DNA of 64,000 bases from Kiritimatiellia bacterium (GTDB taxonomy: Bacteria > Verrucomicrobiota > Kiritimatiellia > SLAD01). Positions 1,844 through 49,896 of the stretch are shown one piece after another (position 1 is the stretch's first letter; each line of letters begins with the position of its first letter). The position numbers were made by a program, and so were the translations under genes. Under the pieces are notes generated by a model that did no database searches, was not told the origin of the DNA, and saw only the letters and a list, made by a program, of their open reading frames with translations. The DNA lies in contig SLKG01000082.1 in assembly GCA_007134735.1 (NCBI GenBank), forward strand, positions 2,731 to 66,730, given 5' to 3'.

Positions 1844-3748
1844 TTATCCCCTGTTTATCCAGATGGACAGAATGGCAATATCAGAGGGATTCACACCGGA
1901 AATTCTAGAGGCCTGGCCTAGATTTTCCGGGTGAATTTTCTTCAACTTTTCCCGGGCTTCATACCGCAACGCACGAATGGCATCGTAGTCCAGATCGAGA
2001 GGGATACGTTGGTGCTCGAGCTTTCCCGCTTTTGCAATTCTCTTTTTCTCTCGATCTATATATCCCGAGTATTTGATATTAATCTCAATTTGGGCGACGA
2101 TTTCCGCATCCAAAGATGTATCGTGACCAGGGAGATCATGATACGCAACACCTTGCCTTCGAAGCATTTGTGACAATGATGCGCCGCTCACCCTCGTTGT
2201 TTCCAGTCGATTAATCTCCTCTTCTATTTCCTTTCTATGACTCTTTGTTTCCAGAATTTCCTCATGTGAACAAATTCCAATCCTCTGTGCATGATCTAAA
2301 AGACGAAAACACGCGTTGTCCTGCCTTAATACAAGCCGGTGCTCAGCTCTCGAGGTGAACATTCGATAAGGTTCATCAGTTCCCTTTGTGACTAGATCGT
2401 CAATCAAAACACCCAGGTATCCCTCATGCCGCGTTATGATGAGCGGCTCCTCGCCACGGATCTTTAGCACGGCATTAACCCCCGCAATAAATCCTTGCCC
2501 CGCCGCCTCTTCATATCCGGTAGTTCCGTTAACCTGGCCGGCAAGATATAGATTTTCAACAAGCATAGACTCAAGCGTATGATAAAGCTGCGTCGGATCC
2601 AGGTAATCATACTCAATGGCATAACCGGGCTTTAAGAATACAGCTCCCTCTAATCCCGGAATCGAATGAATCATCTCCTCCTGGACCTCCTGGGGAAGAC
2701 TGTTGGATGTTCCGTTGGGATAGATTTCAGGAGAAATGCGGCCTTCTGGCTCTATGAAGACATGATGCCGATCCCTGTCTCTGAACTTTACAATCTTATC
2801 CTCAATGGAAGGACAATACCGAACACCCGTCCCTTCGATCATCCCCCCGTACAAAGCGCTGCGACCCAAATTCCTTTCAATGATTTGATGGGTTTGCTCC
2901 GTCGTGTGAGTCAAATAACAGTCAATTTGACGAGTCCCGGGAAACCATGGCTTAAGCGGATTCCCCGATTGTTCCACGTGGAACAATTCATCCGTTGCAC
3001 CCGGTCCGGCCTTTTGTTGTTCCACGTGGAACAACCGCCAATCTCGCTTTGCCGCCCGCGAGAAAAACGGAGGGGGATCATATCCCGGCTGGACTTCCAT
3101 TCGACCGAAATTAATGCTTTCCCGATGCAACCTGGGAGGGGTCCCCGTCTTCAGCCTTCCCATTCGAAACCCCAACTTATTAAATGACTGACTTAATTGA
3201 TACGCCCCTTTCTCCCCAAGCCGACCGCCGGGATAACATCGGTCACCAATGTAGATTTTTCCTCCAAGAAACGTGCCTGTCGCGATTATTACACAGCGGC
3301 CAGCGATTCGAGATCCGCCCTCTGTGATCACACCCCTCACTTTTCCATCTTTTATCCACAGGTTACCAACAAGGACCTCGATAACCTCGATATTGGATGT
3401 CATTTGGATGACAGCCTTGATGCGCTCGGGGTAGGCAGTCTTCTCCGACTGAATGCGATGGGCTTGGACGGCGGGTCCTTTTCGGGTGTTCAGGGTTCGA
3501 AACTGGATTCCCGTATAATCCGCATTCCGAGCCATCTCTCCACCCAAGGCATCCAGTTCGCATACAATATGGGATTTCGCCATTCCTCCGATCGATGGAT
3601 TGCATGACATACGGGCAATGGAATCAAAAGAAGCTGTGACCAGTGCCGTGCGAGCCCCCATGCGCGCGGAAGCCAGAGCAGCCTCACAGCCGGCATGACC
3701 CGCACCCACAACAATCACGTCGTACTCTGTGTCAAGATATTTATTCAT
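1844..3748 (-). CDS. mnmG: tRNA uridine-5-carboxymethylaminomethyl(34) synthesis enzyme MnmG (GidA)
   Basis: 634 aa; N-terminal FAD motif [15 protein letters not shown], conserved [11 protein letters not shown] block, full-length colinearity with GidA; carries a ~28-aa in-frame insertion encoded by two palindromes (see parS features). Confidence 0.95.
2970..2985. other. parS-like centromere site (TGTTCCACGTGGAACA), copy 1, inside mnmG
   Basis: Perfect 16-bp palindrome matching ParB-binding parS consensus tGTTNCACGTGAAACa (Pseudomonas-type variant); read in-frame as LFHVEQ. Confidence 0.6.
3018..3033. other. parS-like centromere site (TGTTCCACGTGGAACA), copy 2, inside mnmG
   Basis: Identical 16-bp palindrome 48 bp from copy 1; also encodes LFHVEQ in-frame. 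Confidence 0.6.
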
Positions 3749-3896
3749 TCTCTCCGGATATCCTGCACCGGCCCCCAGATCGATTTTCTCTCATTCACCA
3801 TCGGGCTTGATGTGATGGTCGGCCGGTTAAACGGGGCAAAGTATATACCAGGTGCGTCATGAAGCAAGCGGCCGGGAAGGGGTCATTTCTAAACTA

Positions 3897-5357
3897 TTAC
3901 TTCCCTATACAGAAGCGCGAGAAAATATGGTCCAGGAGGTCGTCCTGATAGACGCGGCCGGTAACAGAGCCTATCTGTTCCAGCGCCGATCGCATTCGCG
4001 CAGAAGCCAAGGCCGCCATGTCCTCCCGGCCCGCACCCAGCATCTCGCAAGCGGCCCCCATATCCTCTCGGGCCCCCGCAAGAAAACGGCGATGCCGCTC
4101 CGAGATGGTCGCATGCGGCCGGGCGCCCAAATCTAACCGAGACGAAAGCAAACCACCAACTACACCCCTTATCTCGTCAACACCGAAATCCCCAGCAAGA
4201 CAAGCTTCTATGACAGGGTGGGGCGCAAATACCCCTTTATAATGTATATTTCCCAAGTCTATCTTGTTAATTACAATGATACTACGCCCCACCGGAAGAG
4301 ATGAGATCAATGTTTTGTCGGCGGCGTCCAAAGGTTCATTGGCACTGACCAGGTAGATGGGCAGATCGGCGCGGCGCAGGTGGGCGCGGGTCCGGTCGAT
4401 GCCTTCGCGCTCGATATCGCATTCGGAGTCGCGCAACCCGGCGGTATCGACCAAGCGGAGCGGAATGCCGTTGACGACGAATTCCTCCTCGATGGTGTCG
4501 CGAGTGGTGCCCGGGGACGGGGAGACGATGGCGCGGGCGGTGCCGAGGAGCTTGTTGAGCAGGGTGGATTTGCCCACGTTCGGTCGCCCGGCGATGACGA
4601 CCAATGCGCCGTCGCGCAAAAGATGACCCTCATCCCAGGTTGCGATAAGGGATTCTAGGGTTCGTTCTGCTTCGCGAGCACGCCGGACCAGTTCGGGAAG
4701 CACCTGCTCGGGCAATTCATCCTCCGGGAAATCCAGGGTCGCCTCCAGATCGCCGGCCACGAGCATGATCTGATCGTATATCCCGTTGAATTTCCGGCTC
4801 AAGCCGCCCTCCAATTGATCCAGCGCGGCGGTCGCGGCTCGTTCCGAGCGCGCGCAAATCAGATCCAACACGGCTTCTGCCTGTACCAGATCGATCCGGC
4901 CGTTCAGAAAGGCGCGCTGGGTAAACTCTCCCGGTTCGGCGGGTCGGGCCCCCGCGTCCAGCACGCATCGCAATATGCGGCGGGAACACATGGATCCGCC
5001 GTGACCCTGCAGCTCAACGACATCTTCCCCGGTATAGCTATGCGGTGCGCGCATGACAAGCAGGATGGCCTGATCTATAACCTCTTCTCCATCAACGACA
5101 TGCCCAACAACAAAGGTGTTGGCTGATCGAGCGGAGGGCTTGTCACCCTTGCAAATGAAAACCTGATCGGCAACGCCGAGGGCTTCCGGGCCGGATATCC
5201 GCACGATGGAAATCCCCGCCTCGCCCGGCGCTGTCGCAATAGCCGCGATGGTGTCGTCCGGCACGTGGGGCGCATTGGGGACAGGTACCTCGCTGGGGAT
5301 GGGGACAGAGGACGGCTGGACAGATGGACGGTTGGACGGATGAGTATCAGGGTTCAT
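3897..5357 (-). CDS. mnmE: tRNA modification GTPase MnmE (TrmE)
   Basis: G-domain P-loop GRPNVGKSTL, C-terminal CIGK tetrapeptide typical of MnmE; operon order mnmE-mnmG. ATG at 5357 gives a 35-aa Pro-rich extension; a GTG at 5265 (HVPDDTIAAIATAPG) would give canonical length, so the true start may be 5265. Confidence 0.9.
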   Translation of the reverse strand: MNPDTHPSNRPSVQPSSVPIPSEVPVPNAPHVPDDTIAAIATAPGEAGISIVRISGPEALGVADQVFICKGDKPSARSANTFVVGHVVDGEEVIDQAILLVMRAPHSYTGEDVVELQGHGGSMCSRRILRCVLDAGARPAEPGEFTQRAFLNGRIDLVQAEAVLDLICARSERAATAALDQLEGGLSRKFNGIYDQIMLVAGDLEATLDFPEDELPEQVLPELVRRAREAERTLESLIATWDEGHLLRDGALVVIAGRPNVGKSTLLNKLLGTARAIVSPSPGTTRDTIEEEFVVNGIPLRLVDTAGLRDSECDIEREGIDRTRAHLRRADLPIYLVSANEPLDAADKTLISSLPVGRSIIVINKIDLGNIHYKGVFAPHPVIEACLAGDFGVDEIRGVVGGLLSSRLDLGARPHATISERHRRFLAGAREDMGAACEMLGAGREDMAALASARMRSALEQIGSVTGRVYQDDLLDHIFSRFCIGK

Positions 5358-19743: not shown

Positions 19744-21102
19744 CTAGCCCGTGATTTCCAGCAGGGCGTTGGCGATGGAGAGGTAGATCAGCACACCCCC
19801 CACATCCGCGACGGAGGTTACCAGCGGGGCGCTGGCCGTCGCGGGATCCATCTTGAATCGGCCCAGGATGAACGGCAGGGACATGCCGAGCAGGCTTCCG
19901 AAGATCACAATGCTGACCATGGAAGTCGAAACAACCAGGGCCACCCGCATATCGGTTCGGTACAGGGCCAGGAAGAACACCGCGACCGCCATGGAAATAC
20001 CCAGCGTCAGCGAGACGGCGATTTCGCGGAATAACAGGCGAAGATAATCGCCGGTTCGCACGTCACCCGTGGCCAGACTGCGCACAATCAGTGTGGCCGC
20101 CTGCGCCCCCGAATTGCCCCCGCTGTCGATCAGCAACGGTAGAAAGAATACAAGCGCCACTACGGATTCGATCAACTCCTCAAAATGCGCGATGCCCGCC
20201 CCGGAGAAAATGTTTACGAAGACCAGCAGGACCAACCAGCCGACCCGCCGCAGATAAAGGGTGGCATACGGAGCGTTCAACACGCTGGTGTGCAGGGGAA
20301 GCACCGACCCGATTTTCTGCATGTCCTCCGTGGCTTCCTCTTCGATGACGTCGATAATGTCGTCGGTCTTGATTCGACCGATCAAGACACCGCCGTGTCC
20401 GACAACCGGAATGGCGCGAAAATCGTATTTCTCGATCAGGTGCGCCACTTCCTCCTGGTCGGCATCCGCGCGCACGCTGATGACATCGCGCGTAGCGATG
20501 TCACCCAGCCGCATGCGTTCATCATCGGCCGTTATGAGCCGCTTCAACGGCATCACGCCGGTCAGGCGCCGTTCCCGGTCGGTGACATACAGATAGGAAA
20601 TGCCTTCGACCTCTTCCAATGCGCGGAGCGCCTGGATGGCCCCGGCCACGGTGGTGTCTTCGTCCAGCGCGAAAACGTCCGGCGACATGATGCCGCCCGC
20701 GCTTTCCGGGCTGTAGGCCATCAGTTCCTGAATTTCGGCGGATTCCTCCAGCGTCATGTGGCCAAGCACGGAATCCACAACGTCTTCGGGCAACCCGCCC
20801 AGAATATCCGCAACCTCTTCGGGGGGCAGGGTGCGCAGCGCGTCAGACGTCGTTCGCGGATCAAGCAATTCGGCGATTTCGCCGCGCACCACGGGATCCA
20901 GTTGATACAACACGCGGCCGGCGACGTCCGGCGGGAGAAGATCAAGAATGCGCCGGCACTCATCCGCGTGCAGGGTATGGCAAGCGTCCGCAATGTCTTC
21001 CGGACGCTCTTTGCGAAGAAGGAAACGCAGTTGTTCGACGTTATTTTCCTCCAACGCGGCCTTGATTTGTTCGGCCAGTCTGTTGTCTGTCGGTTCGGTC
21101 AT
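19744..21102 (-). CDS. mgtE: magnesium transporter MgtE (copy 1)
   Basis: 452 aa; N domain, tandem CBS domains, C-terminal 5-TM MgtE domain ending ...GFLLK/ GRFKMDPA..PLVTS.DVGGVLIY. Confidence 0.9.
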   Translation of the reverse strand: MTEPTDNRLAEQIKAALEENNVEQLRFLLRKERPEDIADACHTLHADECRRILDLLPPDVAGRVLYQLDPVVRGEIAELLDPRTTSDALRTLPPEEVADILGGLPEDVVDSVLGHMTLEESAEIQELMAYSPESAGGIMSPDVFALDEDTTVAGAIQALRALEEVEGISYLYVTDRERRLTGVMPLKRLITADDERMRLGDIATRDVISVRADADQEEVAHLIEKYDFRAIPVVGHGGVLIGRIKTDDIIDVIEEEATEDMQKIGSVLPLHTSVLNAPYATLYLRRVGWLVLLVFVNIFSGAGIAHFEELIESVVALVFFLPLLIDSGGNSGAQAATLIVRSLATGDVRTGDYLRLLFREIAVSLTLGISMAVAVFFLALYRTDMRVALVVSTSMVSIVIFGSLLGMSLPFILGRFKMDPATASAPLVTSVADVGGVLIYLSIANALLEITG

Positions 21103-21129
21103 GTTGTCCCGAAATGATACGACATTACA

Positions 21130-22536
21130 CTATATGAAAATCCATGGCACACACACCGCCCGCGCTTCTTCGATGACGGCCGCGGGGTCCATGATGTCCA
21201 GCAAAGCCGTCGCAATGCCCAGATAGATCAGCACGCCCGCGATATCCGCGATCGATGTCACCAACGGCGCGCTGGCGGTGGCCGGATCCATATTGAATTT
21301 CTTCAACAGGAACGGAAGGGATATGCCGATCAAACTTCCGATCACCACAATCGTGATCATGGATATGAAGACCACCAGGGCGACTTCGGGGCCGGCGCGG
21401 TACCAGGCGATCATGTACACGCACACGGCCATGGTGGCGCCCAGCGCCAGGGACACACCGACTTCGCGCAGCAGCAGGCGCGCGTAATCGCCCGCGTTGA
21501 CATCCCCCGTGGCCATACTCCGCACGATGAGGGTTGAGGCCTGCGCGCCGGAATTGCCCCCGCTGGCAATGAGCAGGGGCAGGAAAAATACCAGGGCCAC
21601 CACGGATTCGATGAGATGCTCATGATAGGCAATGCCCGCGCCGGAAAAGATGTTAACGAAGACCAGCAGGATTAACCAGACGACCCGCCGCGCGTATAAG
21701 GCCGTGAAGCGCGTCTTCAATACGCTGGTTTCGAAGGGCATGACCGATCCGATCTTCAGCATGTCCTCGGTGGCTTCTTCCTCGATGACGTCCATCACGT
21801 CATCGGCCGTGACCCGGCCTACCAGTGTGCCGTTCAGGTCGACGATGGGCAGGGTTCGAAAATCGTATTTCTGGACCAGGTGAGCCACCTTTTCCTGGTC
21901 GTCGTCCACGCGGGCGCTGATCACGCCGCGGGTCATGATCTCGGAAAGCGCCTGATCGTCCCGGGCGGCAATTAACCGCTTTAGGGGCATCACCCCGATC
22001 AATCGGCGATTCCGATCCGTGACATAGAGATAAGAAACCTGTTCGAGGGTTTTATCTTCGCGGAGCGCCCGGATCGCCTCGGCCACTGTGATATGGCCTT
22101 CGAGGTTGTAAACGTCCGGCGTCATGATGCCGCCGGCCGTGTCCGGCGGATAGGTCATCAATTGTTCGACGTCTTCGGCGGCTTCCGACTCCATGCGCTC
22201 GATGGTGGCCTCGGCCAATTCTTCGGGGATATTTTCGAGAATGTCGGCGGCTTCGTCGGACGGAATGGTATCCAGCGCATCGGCCACGACTTGCGGGTCC
22301 ATCATTTCGATCACTTCGCCGTGAATGACCGGATCGAGATCGGCCATCACCGCGCCAATGGCTTCGGGTTCGAGCAGGCCGAGGACGTGCTTGATTTCTT
22401 CGGCATGAAGGTTGCGGCAGAGTTCGGCAATGTCTTCGGGGCGTTTCTTGTGCAACAGGAACCGGACGCGCACGTCGTCGTTCATTTCCAGCGCGGTTCG
22501 GATTTGGGGGACCAACCGGTTATTGGATTTTGCCAT
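21130..22536 (-). CDS. mgtE: magnesium transporter MgtE (copy 2, tandem paralog)
   Basis: 468 aa; collinear with copy 1 over full length (~55-60% identity by eye). Confidence 0.9.
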   Translation of the reverse strand: MAKSNNRLVPQIRTALEMNDDVRVRFLLHKKRPEDIAELCRNLHAEEIKHVLGLLEPEAIGAVMADLDPVIHGEVIEMMDPQVVADALDTIPSDEAADILENIPEELAEATIERMESEAAEDVEQLMTYPPDTAGGIMTPDVYNLEGHITVAEAIRALREDKTLEQVSYLYVTDRNRRLIGVMPLKRLIAARDDQALSEIMTRGVISARVDDDQEKVAHLVQKYDFRTLPIVDLNGTLVGRVTADDVMDVIEEEATEDMLKIGSVMPFETSVLKTRFTALYARRVVWLILLVFVNIFSGAGIAYHEHLIESVVALVFFLPLLIASGGNSGAQASTLIVRSMATGDVNAGDYARLLLREVGVSLALGATMAVCVYMIAWYRAGPEVALVVFISMITIVVIGSLIGISLPFLLKKFNMDPATASAPLVTSIADIAGVLIYLGIATALLDIMDPAAVIEEARAVCVPWIFI

Positions 22537-47840: not shown

Positions 47841-48737
47841 ATGGCGAAACATATCGGTCTGGGACGCGGTCTGAACGCGTTGATCAAGGACGCCCCCGCG
47901 GCGGAAACCGGCAAAGCGGCCGGCCAGGGCGTCACGCGAATCCCGCTCAACACCATCCACAAGAGTCCGTGGCAACCGCGCCGCCGATTCGACGCGGGGG
48001 CACTGGCGGACCTGGTGCAATCCGTCCGCGAGCGCGGCCTGTTGCAACCCCTGCTGGTTCGAGAAGTGGAAAACGGATATCAACTCATTGCCGGGGAGCG
48101 CCGGTTCCGCGCCGCACAGGAAGCCGAACTCACGGATGTGCCGGTAATTGTGCTGGAGGCATCGGACCGGGACGCACTGGAGCTGGCCCTGATCGAGAAC
48201 CTGCAACGGGAGGATCTCAACCCGATTGAAGAGGCGGAGGGCTACCAGTCGCTGATCGATAAATTCGGGTTGACCCAGGAACAGATCGCGGAGCGGGTCG
48301 GCAAAGGCCGCGCCACGGTCGCCAATGCCCTGCGCCTGTTGAGCTTGCCCGACCCGGTTCGCGCGATGATATCCGAGAGCCGGCTCTCCACCGGACACGC
48401 CAAGGTATTGCTCGGCGTGGACATCCCGCGCGAACAGGAACTGCTTGCTGACCGGGCCGCCAAGGAAGGCCTGTCGGTACGGACGCTGGAAAAAATCGTG
48501 GAGAAACTCAAGAAACCGACCCGAAAAACACGCAGCGATCATTCGGATATTCCCGCGTCCCATCTCCAGCATTTGACGGATGAACTGCATGCGCGATTTG
48601 GAACCAGTGTCCGCATCACACCGAGCCGGACGTTGGCAAACGGGAAGAAAGTCCGCGGACGCATAGAAATCGATTATTACTCCCCCGACGATCTGGACCG
48701 CCTGTTGGTCATCCTGGGTTTAACCGAATCCCTCTAG
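47841..48737 (+). CDS. parB: chromosome partitioning protein ParB (Spo0J)
   Basis: 298 aa; ParB box GERRFRAA, HTH domain, C-terminal dimerisation domain; no parA upstream in this window. Confidence 0.9.
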   Translation: MAKHIGLGRGLNALIKDAPAAETGKAAGQGVTRIPLNTIHKSPWQPRRRFDAGALADLVQSVRERGLLQPLLVREVENGYQLIAGERRFRAAQEAELTDVPVIVLEASDRDALELALIENLQREDLNPIEEAEGYQSLIDKFGLTQEQIAERVGKGRATVANALRLLSLPDPVRAMISESRLSTGHAKVLLGVDIPREQELLADRAAKEGLSVRTLEKIVEKLKKPTRKTRSDHSDIPASHLQHLTDELHARFGTSVRITPSRTLANGKKVRGRIEIDYYSPDDLDRLLVILGLTESL

Positions 48738-48741
48738 TATC

Positions 48742-49896
48742 ATGGATGACCAACCATCCAATCCTTCTTCGGACGAAGGCGCTGATCGGTCGCGCCAGGA
48801 ACAAGCCCGCGAGTACGAATCCATTCACAATCGACTATTCGTGGTCCGGATCGCGCTTACCGTATTATTGCTTGTCCTGTACCTGTTCACAGGCCTTTCC
48901 GCCCAACTGACCGAGGGGCTCGAGAATCGGTTCGGCGACGCATGGTGGATGGTTAACACGCTATACATCCTGGTCACCCTCTTCATCTTTTCGGCCATCA
49001 TGTTTCCGATCAGCCTGTACGGCGATTACCACATCGAGCGCCGCTACGGGTTGAGCAAACAGGGCATGAACAGTTGGTTCGCGGACTACCTCAAGGGACT
49101 GGCGCTGGAATTGACGTTGATGACGCTGTTTTTGAGCGTCATCTATGCGTTGTTGCGGTGGTATCCCGACATCTGGTGGATTTGGGCCACGGCGGTGTAT
49201 GTCCTGCTTTCGGTGGTGTTGTCCTCCGTGGCGCCTGTCCTGATCATGCCGCTTTTTCACAAATTCGAACCCCTTGAGGATTCGGAGCTTACGCAAGCCG
49301 TCCGCGATTTCGCGGAGCGAGCGGGCTTGCGGGTCATCGGCGTATTCAAGTGGGGCCTGGAGGAGAAAACGGAGACGGCCAATGCGGCCTTGGCGGGCTT
49401 GGGCCGAACACGGCGCATCATACTTGGGGACACCATGCTCGGTGATTACAGCCGGGACGAAATCCTGTCGGTACTCGCGCACGAGGTGGGCCATTACAAG
49501 AACCGCGACATGTCCCGCTTGCTTGTGGTCAGTACCGTGCTGGCCGCCCTGGGATTTTATGCGGCGCACCTGGTACTTCGCGTGCTGGCGGATTATTTCG
49601 GATTCGCCGGGGTTCAGGACATCGGGGCATTTCCGATTTTCATTTTCTCCCTGTTTGTGTTTTCGCTGATCGCCATGCCGCTGGCCAACACCTATTCGCG
49701 GGTGCGCGAATACGCCGCCGACGCCTATGCGGTCCGGGCCGTCGGCACGGCTGAACCGCTGGTCGGCGCGCTTGAAAAATTGGCGGACCAGAACCTGGCG
49801 GACCGGCAGCCTCCGGCCTGGATCGAATTCCTGCTGCACAGCCACCCGTCCATTTCCCGGCGGATCGATCGCGCGAAGCGGGTTCTCGGGAATTGA
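48742..49896 (+). CDS. M48-family zinc metallopeptidase (Ste24/HtpX-like), integral membrane
   Basis: 384 aa; multiple TM helices; HEVGHYKNRD zinc motif. Confidence 0.8.
   Translation: MDDQPSNPSSDEGADRSRQEQAREYESIHNRLFVVRIALTVLLLVLYLFTGLSAQLTEGLENRFGDAWWMVNTLYILVTLFIFSAIMFPISLYGDYHIERRYGLSKQGMNSWFADYLKGLALELTLMTLFLSVIYALLRWYPDIWWIWATAVYVLLSVVLSSVAPVLIMPLFHKFEPLEDSELTQAVRDFAERAGLRVIGVFKWGLEEKTETANAALAGLGRTRRIILGDTMLGDYSRDEILSVLAHEVGHYKNRDMSRLLVVSTVLAALGFYAAHLVLRVLADYFGFAGVQDIGAFPIFIFSLFVFSLIAMPLANTYSRVREYAADAYAVRAVGTAEPLVGALEKLADQNLADRQPPAWIEFLLHSHPSISRRIDRAKRVLGN

What the first reader, a model, noticed from the sequence alone, without database searches (positions are those of the whole stretch)
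2969..3034. Two perfect Pseudomonas-type parS centromere palindromes embedded in-frame inside mnmG
The 18-bp palindrome TTGTTCCACGTGGAACAA occurs twice inside mnmG, at 2969-2986 and 3017-3034. The two copies are 48 bp apart and are the only shared sequence in that interval. Their 16-bp core TGTTCCACGTGGAACA is the known ParB-binding parS consensus (tGTTNCACGTGAAACa, the symmetric C/G variant described for Pseudomonas). A parB gene lies 45 kb away and mnmG is a classic origin-proximal gene. Both copies are translated in-frame on the coding strand as LFHVEQ. They sit in a ~28-aa insertion relative to E. coli MnmG, between the PPPFF and CYLTHT blocks. This looks like centromere sites carried inside a loop-tolerant region of a housekeeping enzyme.
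Basis: partly seen in the sequence, partly recalled or inferred. Interest (0 to 1): 0.65.

Follow-up and report, generated by a model that had tools for sequence, protein, structure and literature searches.

The report
Centromere sites embedded inside mnmG gene
Two perfect copies of the bacterial chromosome-segregation docking site (parS) sit inside a dispensable-looking surface loop of the tRNA-modifying enzyme MnmG, and hundreds of related bacteria keep the exact DNA sequence there in any of the three reading frames, so the loop seems to persist because of the DNA sites it carries.

Summary
TTGTTCCACGTGGAACAA occurs at 2969-2986 and 3017-3034. Nothing else within 3 mismatches of the 16-bp core occurs in the 64 kb. 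Both copies lie in frame (LFHVEQ) in a roughly 30-34-residue insertion of MnmG (1844-3748, minus strand). A canonical ParB is encoded at 47841-48737.

Comparative data support the parS reading.
- Of 357 MnmG relatives with a recognisable loop (Kiritimatiellota, Opitutales/Coraliomargarita and an unnamed clade), 356 carry 1-5 parS-encoded motifs there.
- The spacers between motifs vary freely in length and sequence.
- In 11 genomes sampled by protein homology, all 27 motifs are the perfect 16-mer, read as FHVE or CSTWN. A VPRGT reading occurs in other loci.
- For 11 FHVE sites, the chance of this codon choice is about 10^-18.
- The only relative without the motif has a perfect pair in the mnmE-mnmG spacer.
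- No other parS-like site was found in about 246 kb of flanks.

These are most likely real ParB loading sites held by selection on DNA. Binding is untested, and no genome-wide census could be run. The biochemistry is ordinary. The clade-wide dual-coding arrangement is unusual and was not found in the searchable literature.

The parts
3017..3034 (.). parS copy A. This is an 18-bp palindrome with 16-bp core 3018-3033 (TGTTCCACGTGGAACA). It is read on the minus strand as MnmG L239-Q244 (LFHVEQ).
   Evidence: F240, H241, V242 and E243 are nearly invariant in the 81-sequence alignment
2969..2986 (.). parS copy B. This is an identical 18-bp palindrome with core 2970-2985. It is read as MnmG L255-Q260 (LFHVEQ).
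   Evidence: F256, H257, V258 and E259 are nearly invariant
2987..3016 (-). 30-bp spacer between the two sites, encoding [10 protein letters not shown]. Its length and sequence are hypervariable in relatives.
   Evidence: centre-to-centre spacing ranges from 30 to 138 bp, most often 45-51 bp
2933..3058 (-). Lineage-specific insertion loop of MnmG (about residues 231-272), lying between the PPPFFS and Q-x-x-C-Y-L-T-H-T blocks. It hosts both parS sites and is predicted to be flexible.
   Evidence: unaligned to PDB MnmGs; absent in outgroups; AF2 mean pLDDT 90.6, but 58 and 49 for residue blocks 241-250 and 251-260
1844..3748 (-). mnmG (gidA), encoding the tRNA U34 carboxymethylaminomethyl modification enzyme. 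The 634-aa ORF is intact.
3897..5357 (-). mnmE (trmE), immediately upstream of mnmG. The mnmE-mnmG pair is conserved in relatives.
47841..48737 (+). parB, the presumed cognate binding protein. It is a canonical CTP-dependent ParB. No parA lies next to it.
   Evidence: ParB_N, HTH_ParB, ParB_C; 1e-59 to M. xanthus ParB 7bnk; GERRFRA, ENLQRE, GKGR...GHAK; no ParA Walker-A ORF in the window

Best explanation
The two palindromes are genuine chromosomal parS sites. ParB dimers, encoded 45 kb away, would recognise the 16-bp core, close into CTP-bound clamps and slide onto flanking DNA. This would build the partition complex that marks the origin-proximal region for segregation and probably for SMC loading.

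The sites sit in a flexible, lineage-specific surface loop of MnmG. Selection acts on the DNA 16-mer, and the enzyme simply tolerates whichever peptide results (FHVE[Q/H], CSTWN or VPRGT). Two or more copies give redundancy and higher loading.

Shown here: the sequence identity to parS, the presence of a canonical ParB, DNA-level rather than protein-level conservation across Kiritimatiellota and Opitutales, and the loop's location and low model confidence.

Inferred, not shown: ParB binding, clamp loading, and a role as the main centromere.
For: 1. The perfect 16-mer occurs twice against 0.02 expected, and no other site within 3 mismatches occurs in 64 kb.
2. Canonical ParB is present with its parS-specificity residues.
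3. Motif counts in the same loop: 238 of 239 relatives from the first two protein searches have at least one FHVE motif, and 215 have two. In a third search, 118 of 118 have 2-5 motifs in three frames.
4. The residue before F is L, M or V in 93% of cases (codon NTG). The residue after E is Q or H in 98% (codon CAN). This is the footprint of a 16-nt constraint.
5. Eleven genomes were fetched by protein identity, not by DNA pattern. All 27 motif sites in them are the perfect 16-mer. For 11 FHVE sites, the joint probability of codons TTC-CAC-GTG-GAA under each gene's own codon usage is 10^-18.4.
6. Frame independence: P0020 and P0119 read one site as CSTWN and the other as FHVE. L069 and L092 use VPRGT. 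L161 has four sites, all read as CSTWN.
7. P0088 is the one homolog without the motif. It has a perfect pair in the adjacent mnmE-mnmG spacer.
8. No other site within 3 mismatches occurs in about 246 kb of window plus flanks.
9. In relatives, mnmG lies 0.1-8 kb from dnaA or dnaN.
10. The loop is absent from solved MnmG structures and from outgroup MnmGs, and it has low pLDDT.
Against: - There is no experimental evidence of ParB binding.
- No parA was found in the 64 kb. No dnaA, dnaN or DnaA-box cluster was found either, so origin proximity of this copy rests on a weak GC-skew turn and on gyrBA.
- A genome-wide parS census was impossible with these tools, so 'main centromere' is unproven.
- In Coraliomargarita algicola, mnmG lies at 2.86 Mb of a 5.38-Mb record. 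That would be far from the origin if the record starts at oriC, which is unknown.
- The two palindromes also form a very stable mRNA stem, so an RNA-level contribution cannot be fully excluded.
Confidence: 0.85

Rival explanations
1. The conserved feature is a peptide motif. On this view [L/M]FHVE[Q/H] is a functional repeat in MnmG, for example a contact for MnmE, tRNA or a cofactor, and the DNA palindrome is incidental.
For: The motif is nearly invariant at the protein level in the alignment. The first copy lies at the end of a predicted helix.
Against: - The same 16-mer is kept when it is read as CSTWN or VPRGT.
- Synonymous codons are fixed, with probability 10^-18.4.
- Flanking residues vary exactly as NTG and CAN codons allow.
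- P0088 lost the motif but gained an intergenic pair.
- Copy number ranges from 1 to 5 and spacing from 30 to 138 bp.
- The loop is absent from characterised MnmGs.
Confidence: 0.02
2. Selection is on mRNA structure. The two self-complementary copies pair into a long stem inside the mnmG mRNA that controls its stability, processing (for example by RNase III) or translation.
For: The predicted stem is about 21 bp, with MFE -54.2 kcal/mol and z = -4.3 against shuffles.
Against: - An RNA stem would tolerate covarying changes, but here the exact parS sequence is invariant across phyla.
- Single-copy genes exist, such as P0049, P0029 and P0110.
- The pair can move to an intergenic spacer.
- The same pairs occur in non-coding DNA of many other lineages.
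- No Rfam family matches here.
The stem is best seen as an unavoidable by-product, though it may have side effects.
Confidence: 0.05
3. The palindrome is bound by a different DNA-binding protein, such as a ParB paralogue, a Noc-like factor or a CACGTG-recognising regulator or restriction-modification system, and has no centromere role.
For: No parA is adjacent to parB. Binding is untested.
Against: - The sequence matches the ParB parS consensus over all 16 positions, not only CACGTG.
- Conservation stops exactly at the 16-bp boundary.
- The window's ParB keeps the parS-type Arg and Gly rather than the Noc-type Gln and Arg.
- The sites are linked to mnmG, dnaA and dnaN, as is typical for parS.
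Confidence: 0.05
4. The repeats are copies of a small mobile or repetitive element (REP- or MITE-like) that happened to land in mnmG.
For: The sequence is a short perfect palindrome in two copies. Some relatives show tandem duplication, such as L121 and P0294.
Against: - No other copy occurs in 64 kb or in about 180 kb of relatives' flanks.
- The position is fixed at one loop across phyla.
- Only the 16-mer is shared; the spacers are unrelated.
Confidence: 0.01

Closest known systems
Chromosomal ParABS centromeres, parS consensus tGTTNCACGTGAAACa. Examples are the perfect sites TGTTCCACGTGGAACA of P. aeruginosa parS1-4 and the Caulobacter, Thermus and Myxococcus sites.
   Same: The 16-bp palindrome is identical. 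ParB is canonical (1e-59 to M. xanthus ParB, 7bnk), with its CTP-binding motifs and parS-specificity residues. The sites are clustered, rare, and linked to origin-region genes (mnmG/gidA, dnaA, dnaN, gyrB).
   Different: All detected sites are confined to one protein-coding loop. parB lies 45 kb away and has no parA beside it, unlike the classical gidA-gidB-parA-parB operon with mostly intergenic or nearby sites.
Intragenic parS sites of Bacillus subtilis, for example the site inside spo0J (general knowledge: Lin and Grossman 1998; Breier and Grossman 2007)
   Same: These are functional ParB/Spo0J sites lying within open reading frames, showing that coding DNA can double as a centromere.
   Different: In B. 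subtilis the sites are single and scattered over several genes, and they overlap ordinary coding sequence. Here an extra loop of 30 to 190 aa exists in a universal enzyme, holds 1-5 sites, and is conserved across at least two phyla while everything but the 16-mers drifts.
DNA uptake sequences (USS/DUS) and other cis-elements that shape the peptides of the genes they sit in (general knowledge)
   Same: A DNA-level signal imposes recurrent peptide motifs in three frames on host proteins, preferentially in tolerant regions.
   Different: Uptake sequences number in the thousands and are dispersed genome-wide. Here a handful of sites occupy one orthologous position.
parS sites next to or inside mnmG in other phyla, seen here
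   Same: Perfect pairs lie just upstream or downstream of mnmG in 13 metagenome loci and in a MAG labelled Bifidobacteriaceae. Single sites lie inside the C-terminal linker of mnmG in a Burkholderiaceae MAG (perfect site), a Flavobacteriales MAG and Butyrivibrio (one mismatch each), read as VSRET or VPRGT.
   Different: Those sites occupy a different position in the gene or lie outside it. They are not arrays and do not sit in a dedicated insertion.

Membership tests
Chromosomal parS (ParABS centromere) | 16-bp inverted repeat matching tGTTNCACGTGAAACa | tested here: met
   Two perfect TGTTCCACGTGGAACA sites, against 0.02 expected by chance
Chromosomal parS (ParABS centromere) | A cognate ParB (N-terminal CTPase domain, HTH, C-terminal dimerisation domain) with parS-type specificity residues is encoded in the genome | tested here: met
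   47841-48737 has ParB_N, HTH_ParB and ParB_C. GERRFRA, ENLQRE, GKGR and GHAK align with the M. xanthus, B. subtilis and T. thermophilus ParBs. The R173 and G201 equivalents follow PMC7383237.
Chromosomal parS (ParABS centromere) | ParB binds the site specifically, in vitro or in vivo | not testable with these tools
   This needs EMSA/BLI or ChIP-seq.
Chromosomal parS (ParABS centromere) | Sites are few and clustered in the origin-proximal domain | tested here: inconclusive
   In the window these are the only two sites in 64 kb. The GC-skew minimum is at about 44-49 kb and gyrB/gyrA are present, but dnaA, dnaN and DnaA-box clusters are not. In relatives, mnmG lies 0.1-8 kb from dnaA or dnaN. 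Whole genomes could not be scanned.
Chromosomal parS (ParABS centromere) | A partner ParA ATPase is present | tested here: inconclusive
   No ParA-type Walker-A ORF occurs in the 64 kb, and none lies next to parB in L156. It may be encoded elsewhere.
Chromosomal parS (ParABS centromere) | The DNA sequence is conserved as such, independent of coding context | tested here: met
   All 27 sites in 11 genomes sampled by protein homology are perfect; all three reading frames are seen across the sampled loci; codon-choice probability is 10^-18.4; the pair has relocated to a spacer in L155.
MnmG/GidA | FAD-binding GIDA domain plus C-terminal helical domains, full length, next to mnmE | tested here: met
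   GIDA 9.4e-155, GIDA_C_1st and SAM_GIDA_C. 1.3e-184 to A. aeolicus MnmG 2zxh. AF2 pLDDT 90.6 and pTM 0.92.
Noc/NBS (nucleoid occlusion sites) | NBS-type sequence and Noc-type specificity residues (Q173, K179, K184, R201) | tested here: not met
   The site is parS, not NBS. The protein has Arg and Gly at the 173 and 201 equivalents.

The most novel reading that the evidence does not exclude
The MnmG loop may be a dedicated, anciently maintained 'centromere cassette'. On this reading, in Kiritimatiellota and Opitutales/Verrucomicrobiota the principal (perhaps only) ParB-loading sites of the chromosome live inside the coding sequence of a transcribed housekeeping gene. The loop would exist and grow (1-5 sites, up to about 190 aa) solely because of DNA-level selection. 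ParB loading would then have to coexist with transcription and with an unavoidable long mRNA stem, which might couple mnmG expression to segregation.
Probability: 0.45. Interest if true: 0.7.

Novelty: new variant of a known kind. Interest (0 to 1): 0.55.

Why it matters
The biochemistry expected here (ParB on parS) is textbook. The arrangement is a clean natural example of a non-coding function dictating protein sequence: a universal enzyme carries an extra loop whose only conserved content is a DNA-binding site, kept in any reading frame across at least two phyla.

- It gives a ready marker for the segregation centre, and probably the origin region, in PVC genomes and MAGs, which are poorly studied and where dnaA is not a reliable guide.
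- It offers a natural system for asking how ParB clamps and SMC loading coexist with transcription.
- It is a caution for annotation, because FHVEQ, CSTWN and VPRGT peptides are signatures of parS and not protein motifs.

Tried and rejected
- The genome-contig scan with the MnmG protein picked non-conserved peptides. The loci were reused as outgroups.
- Literature searches found nothing on parS within an MnmG insertion. Terms tried were parS with mnmG, gidA or Verrucomicrobia, and FHVEQ, FHVEH, CSTWN and VPRGT. Livny et al. 2007 (PMC2168934) is not held, so its site tables could not be checked.
- The DnaA-box scan found no cluster. The ParA Walker-A scan found no ORF.
- Pfam on the ORFs beside parB and gyrB found no dnaA or dnaN.
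- No promoter-like or terminator-like site coincides with the palindromes, and counts equal those in shuffles.
- Rfam returned only one tRNA in the window.
- The half-site GTTCCAC is not enriched: 11 found against 7.9 expected, and 4 of the 11 belong to the two parS.
- The listing of cluster members gave no taxon names for the unnamed clades.
- A genome-wide parS census and the origin position in complete genomes could not be obtained, because at most +-10 kb per locus can be fetched.

Full report
**Observation.** The window holds TTGTTCCACGTGGAACAA at 2969-2986 and 3017-3034.
- The 16-bp core TGTTCCACGTGGAACA occurs exactly twice. At up to 2 mismatches 0.02 matches are expected, and none of 100 shuffles gave two.
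- Relaxing to 3 mismatches adds nothing in 64 kb.
- The copies are 48 bp apart centre to centre. The 30 bp between them is not repeated.

**Gene context.**
- ORF 1844-3748 on the minus strand is a full-length MnmG: Pfam GIDA 9.4e-155 plus both C-terminal domains, and 1.3e-184 to the A. aeolicus structure 2zxh.
- mnmE lies directly upstream at 3897-5357.
- Both palindromes are read in frame as LFHVEQ, residues 239-244 and 255-260.
- In HMMER alignments to solved MnmGs the match splits in two. Window residues about 231-272 face only about 8 residues in the A. aeolicus and E. coli chains, so this is an insertion of about 30-34 residues.
- An AlphaFold2 model built on 81 homologs is confident overall (pLDDT 90.6, pTM 0.92). 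It drops to 58 and 49 for residue blocks 241-250 and 251-260, as expected for a flexible surface loop.
- MnmGs from seven other phyla lack the insertion.

**ParB.**
- ORF 47841-48737(+) has ParB_N, HTH_ParB and ParB_C domains.
- It matches M. xanthus ParB (7bnk) at 1e-59, and also Thermus, Bacillus, Caulobacter and Helicobacter ParB/Spo0J.
- It carries GERRFRA and ENLQRE, and in the recognition region GKGRATVANALRLL...STGHAK. These align with GK-x-R and G-H-A-R/K of experimentally characterised ParBs.
- Jalal et al. (PMC7383237) report that R173 and G201 are invariant in ParBs and are replaced by Q and R in Noc. The window protein has the ParB-type residues.
- No parA lies beside parB, and no ParA-type Walker-A ORF occurs in the window.

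**Who else has it.** The closest named MnmG relatives are Kiritimatiellia MAGs. The window matches MAG GCA_003567595.1.
- Of the 120 best homologs (60-73% identity), almost all carry two [L/M/V]FHVE[Q/H] motifs in the same loop. The spacer between them varies from 4 to more than 60 residues with unrelated sequence.
- A second search was seeded with metagenome variants. It shows that Opitutales/Coraliomargarita (Verrucomicrobiota, including cultured C. algicola) and an unnamed clade have 2-3 motifs at the same place.
- Over these two searches, 238 of 239 proteins with a recognisable loop have at least one motif, and 215 have two.
- A third search found another Kiritimatiellota clade with 2-5 motifs in 118 of 118 proteins and loops up to about 190 residues. 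There CSTWN is the commonest reading, alongside FHVE and VPRGT.

**DNA rather than protein is conserved.** Five lines of evidence agree.
- *Frame independence.* FHVE, CSTWN and VPRGT are the three forward translations of TGTTCCACGTGGAACA.
  - In P0020 and P0119 the two sites of one gene are read in different frames, yet both are the perfect 16-mer.
  - L069 and L092 combine FHVE with VPRGT.
  - L161 has four perfect sites all read as CSTWN, and L162 has five read as FHVE.
- *Boundary of the constraint.* The residue before F is L, M or V in 93% of cases (codon NTG). The residue after E is Q or H in 98% (codon CAN). This is what a 16-nt constraint ending mid-codon predicts. The 17th and 18th bases of the window's 18-mer are not conserved.
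- *Codon choice.* Eleven genomes were retrieved by protein identity, so they are unbiased with respect to DNA: the window, L028, L030, L032, L154, L156, L157, L159, L160, L161 and L162.
  - All 27 motif sites in them are the perfect 16-mer.
  - For the 11 FHVE sites analysed, the joint probability of TTC-CAC-GTG-GAA under each gene's own synonymous usage is 10^-18.4.
- *Relocation.* P0088 is the only homolog with no motif. It retains a degenerate loop and has a perfect pair in the mnmE-mnmG spacer, at L155 6162 and 6207.
- *Redundancy.* Several proteins have one decayed copy (FHGEQ, FRVEQ, FYVEQ, FHMEH) next to an intact one. This suggests redundancy, with at least one site always kept.

**Rarity and location.**
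- Apart from the mnmG sites and the L155 pair, no sequence within 3 mismatches of the core occurs in the 64-kb window or in the flanks of the ten relatives scanned at that threshold, L028 at up to 2 (about 246 kb in all).
- In the window the cumulative GC skew turns at about 44-49 kb, near parB. gyrB and gyrA lie at 56.7-61.8 kb. There is no dnaA, dnaN or DnaA-box cluster. Origin proximity here is therefore plausible but not shown.
- In relatives, mnmG is 114 bp from dnaA (L162), 2.7 kb from dnaA and 4.4 kb from dnaN (L161), or 8 kb from dnaN (L160). parB is 6.6 kb from mnmG in L156.

- In 15 loci the pair is inside a full-length mnmG at this loop.
- In 13 loci the pair abuts an mnmG of other lineages.
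- The rest are mostly in short spurious ORFs, that is intergenic DNA, for example just upstream of parA or by rsmG.
- Among the accidental outgroups, parS sites lie within a few kb of mnmG in many Firmicutes. A Burkholderiaceae MAG has a perfect site, and a Flavobacteriales MAG and Butyrivibrio each have a one-mismatch site, inside the C-terminal linker of mnmG, read as VSRET or VPRGT.
- Paired parS and an mnmG neighbourhood are therefore general. The dedicated loop array is specific to these PVC lineages.

**Rivals.**
- *Peptide motif.* This is excluded by the frame and codon data.
- *mRNA structure.* The two copies can form a stem of about 21 bp (-54.2 kcal/mol, z = -4.3). However, the exact sequence is invariant rather than covarying. 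Single-copy genes exist, the pair can leave the gene, and identical pairs occur in non-coding DNA. The stem is therefore a by-product, though perhaps one with consequences.
- *Another binding protein.* This is unlikely, because all 16 positions match parS, only those 16 are constrained, and ParB has parS-type residues.
- *Mobile repeat.* This does not fit a fixed orthologous position with unrelated spacers and no dispersed copies.
- No Rfam family, promoter-like or terminator-like signal coincides with the sites, and half-sites are not enriched.

**Mechanism (inferred).** ParB dimers would nucleate at the two sites, bind CTP, close and slide onto neighbouring DNA, and recruit ParA and/or SMC. 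MnmG keeps working because the sites occupy a tolerant loop. Duplication within the loop expands the array. Mutation of one site is buffered by the others. If all sites are lost, selection favours new ones nearby.

**Novelty.** parS, ParB and intragenic parS (as in B. subtilis spo0J) are known. I found no description of a conserved parS-bearing insertion in MnmG or of these peptide signatures in the searchable literature. The key census paper, Livny 2007, was not available. I rate this a new variant of a known kind: ordinary in biochemistry and unusual in evolutionary arrangement. Confidence that these are real ParB sites held by DNA-level selection is 0.85. Confidence that they are the principal centromere is about 0.45.

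Noticed in passing
window 47841-49896; L156 1368-3430: parB is followed by an M48/CAAX-type peptidase gene and has no parA beside it. The same parB-M48 pair occurs in a relative (L156). No ParA-type Walker-A ORF occurs anywhere in the 64 kb.
   Followed up: partly
L155 6162-6222 (ENA ERZ23497309 scaffold_549): P0088 is the only MnmG homolog lacking the motifs. It has a perfect parS pair, 45 bp centre to centre, in the mnmE-mnmG spacer. Its loop still reads MQFGEQ, which looks like a decayed site.
   Followed up: yes
L161 10805-11018; L162 1675-2002; L053 3944-4058: Another Kiritimatiellota clade carries arrays of 3-5 perfect parS in the same MnmG loop, mostly read as CSTWN, with loops up to about 190 aa. 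In L161 and L162, mnmG lies next to dnaA.
   Followed up: yes
L023 2620-2635; L021 11401-11416; L019/L020 11398-11413: In other phyla a parS (perfect in a Burkholderiaceae MAG; one mismatch in Flavobacteriales and Butyrivibrio) lies inside the variable C-terminal linker of mnmG, read as VSRET or VPRGT. This is a second, independent way of embedding parS in this gene.
   Followed up: partly
L122 2802-4271; L144 10993-12462: Ten perfect parS 16-mers lie within about 1.5 kb, inside a 751-aa stop-to-stop ORF that has only a sub-threshold Wzy_C match. The lineage is unknown, and it is unclear whether the ORF is real.
   Followed up: partly
window 2940-3065 (minus strand RNA): The two palindromes pair with each other in the mnmG mRNA to give a perfect stem of about 21 bp (-54.2 kcal/mol, z = -4.3). 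This could be an RNase III target or a translational obstacle.
   Followed up: partly
window 2001-4000: The mnmG region has GC 0.50, against 0.55-0.62 over the rest of the window.
   Followed up: no
L158 9023-10927 (GCA_003567595.1 PWZD01000172.1): This MAG contig encodes an MnmG identical to the window's. There mnmG is called as two genes (70 aa and 563 aa), whereas the window has one intact 634-aa ORF. This is likely an annotation or assembly artefact.
   Followed up: no
L159 (Coraliomargarita algicola CP138858.1, 2,854,351-2,876,327 of 5,384,071): The parS-bearing mnmG sits near the midpoint of the deposited complete genome. If the record starts at oriC, the centromere would be far from it. 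The record's start point is unknown.
   Followed up: no
window 19744-22536: Two tandem MgtE-family magnesium transporter paralogues lie side by side (452 aa and 468 aa).
   Followed up: no
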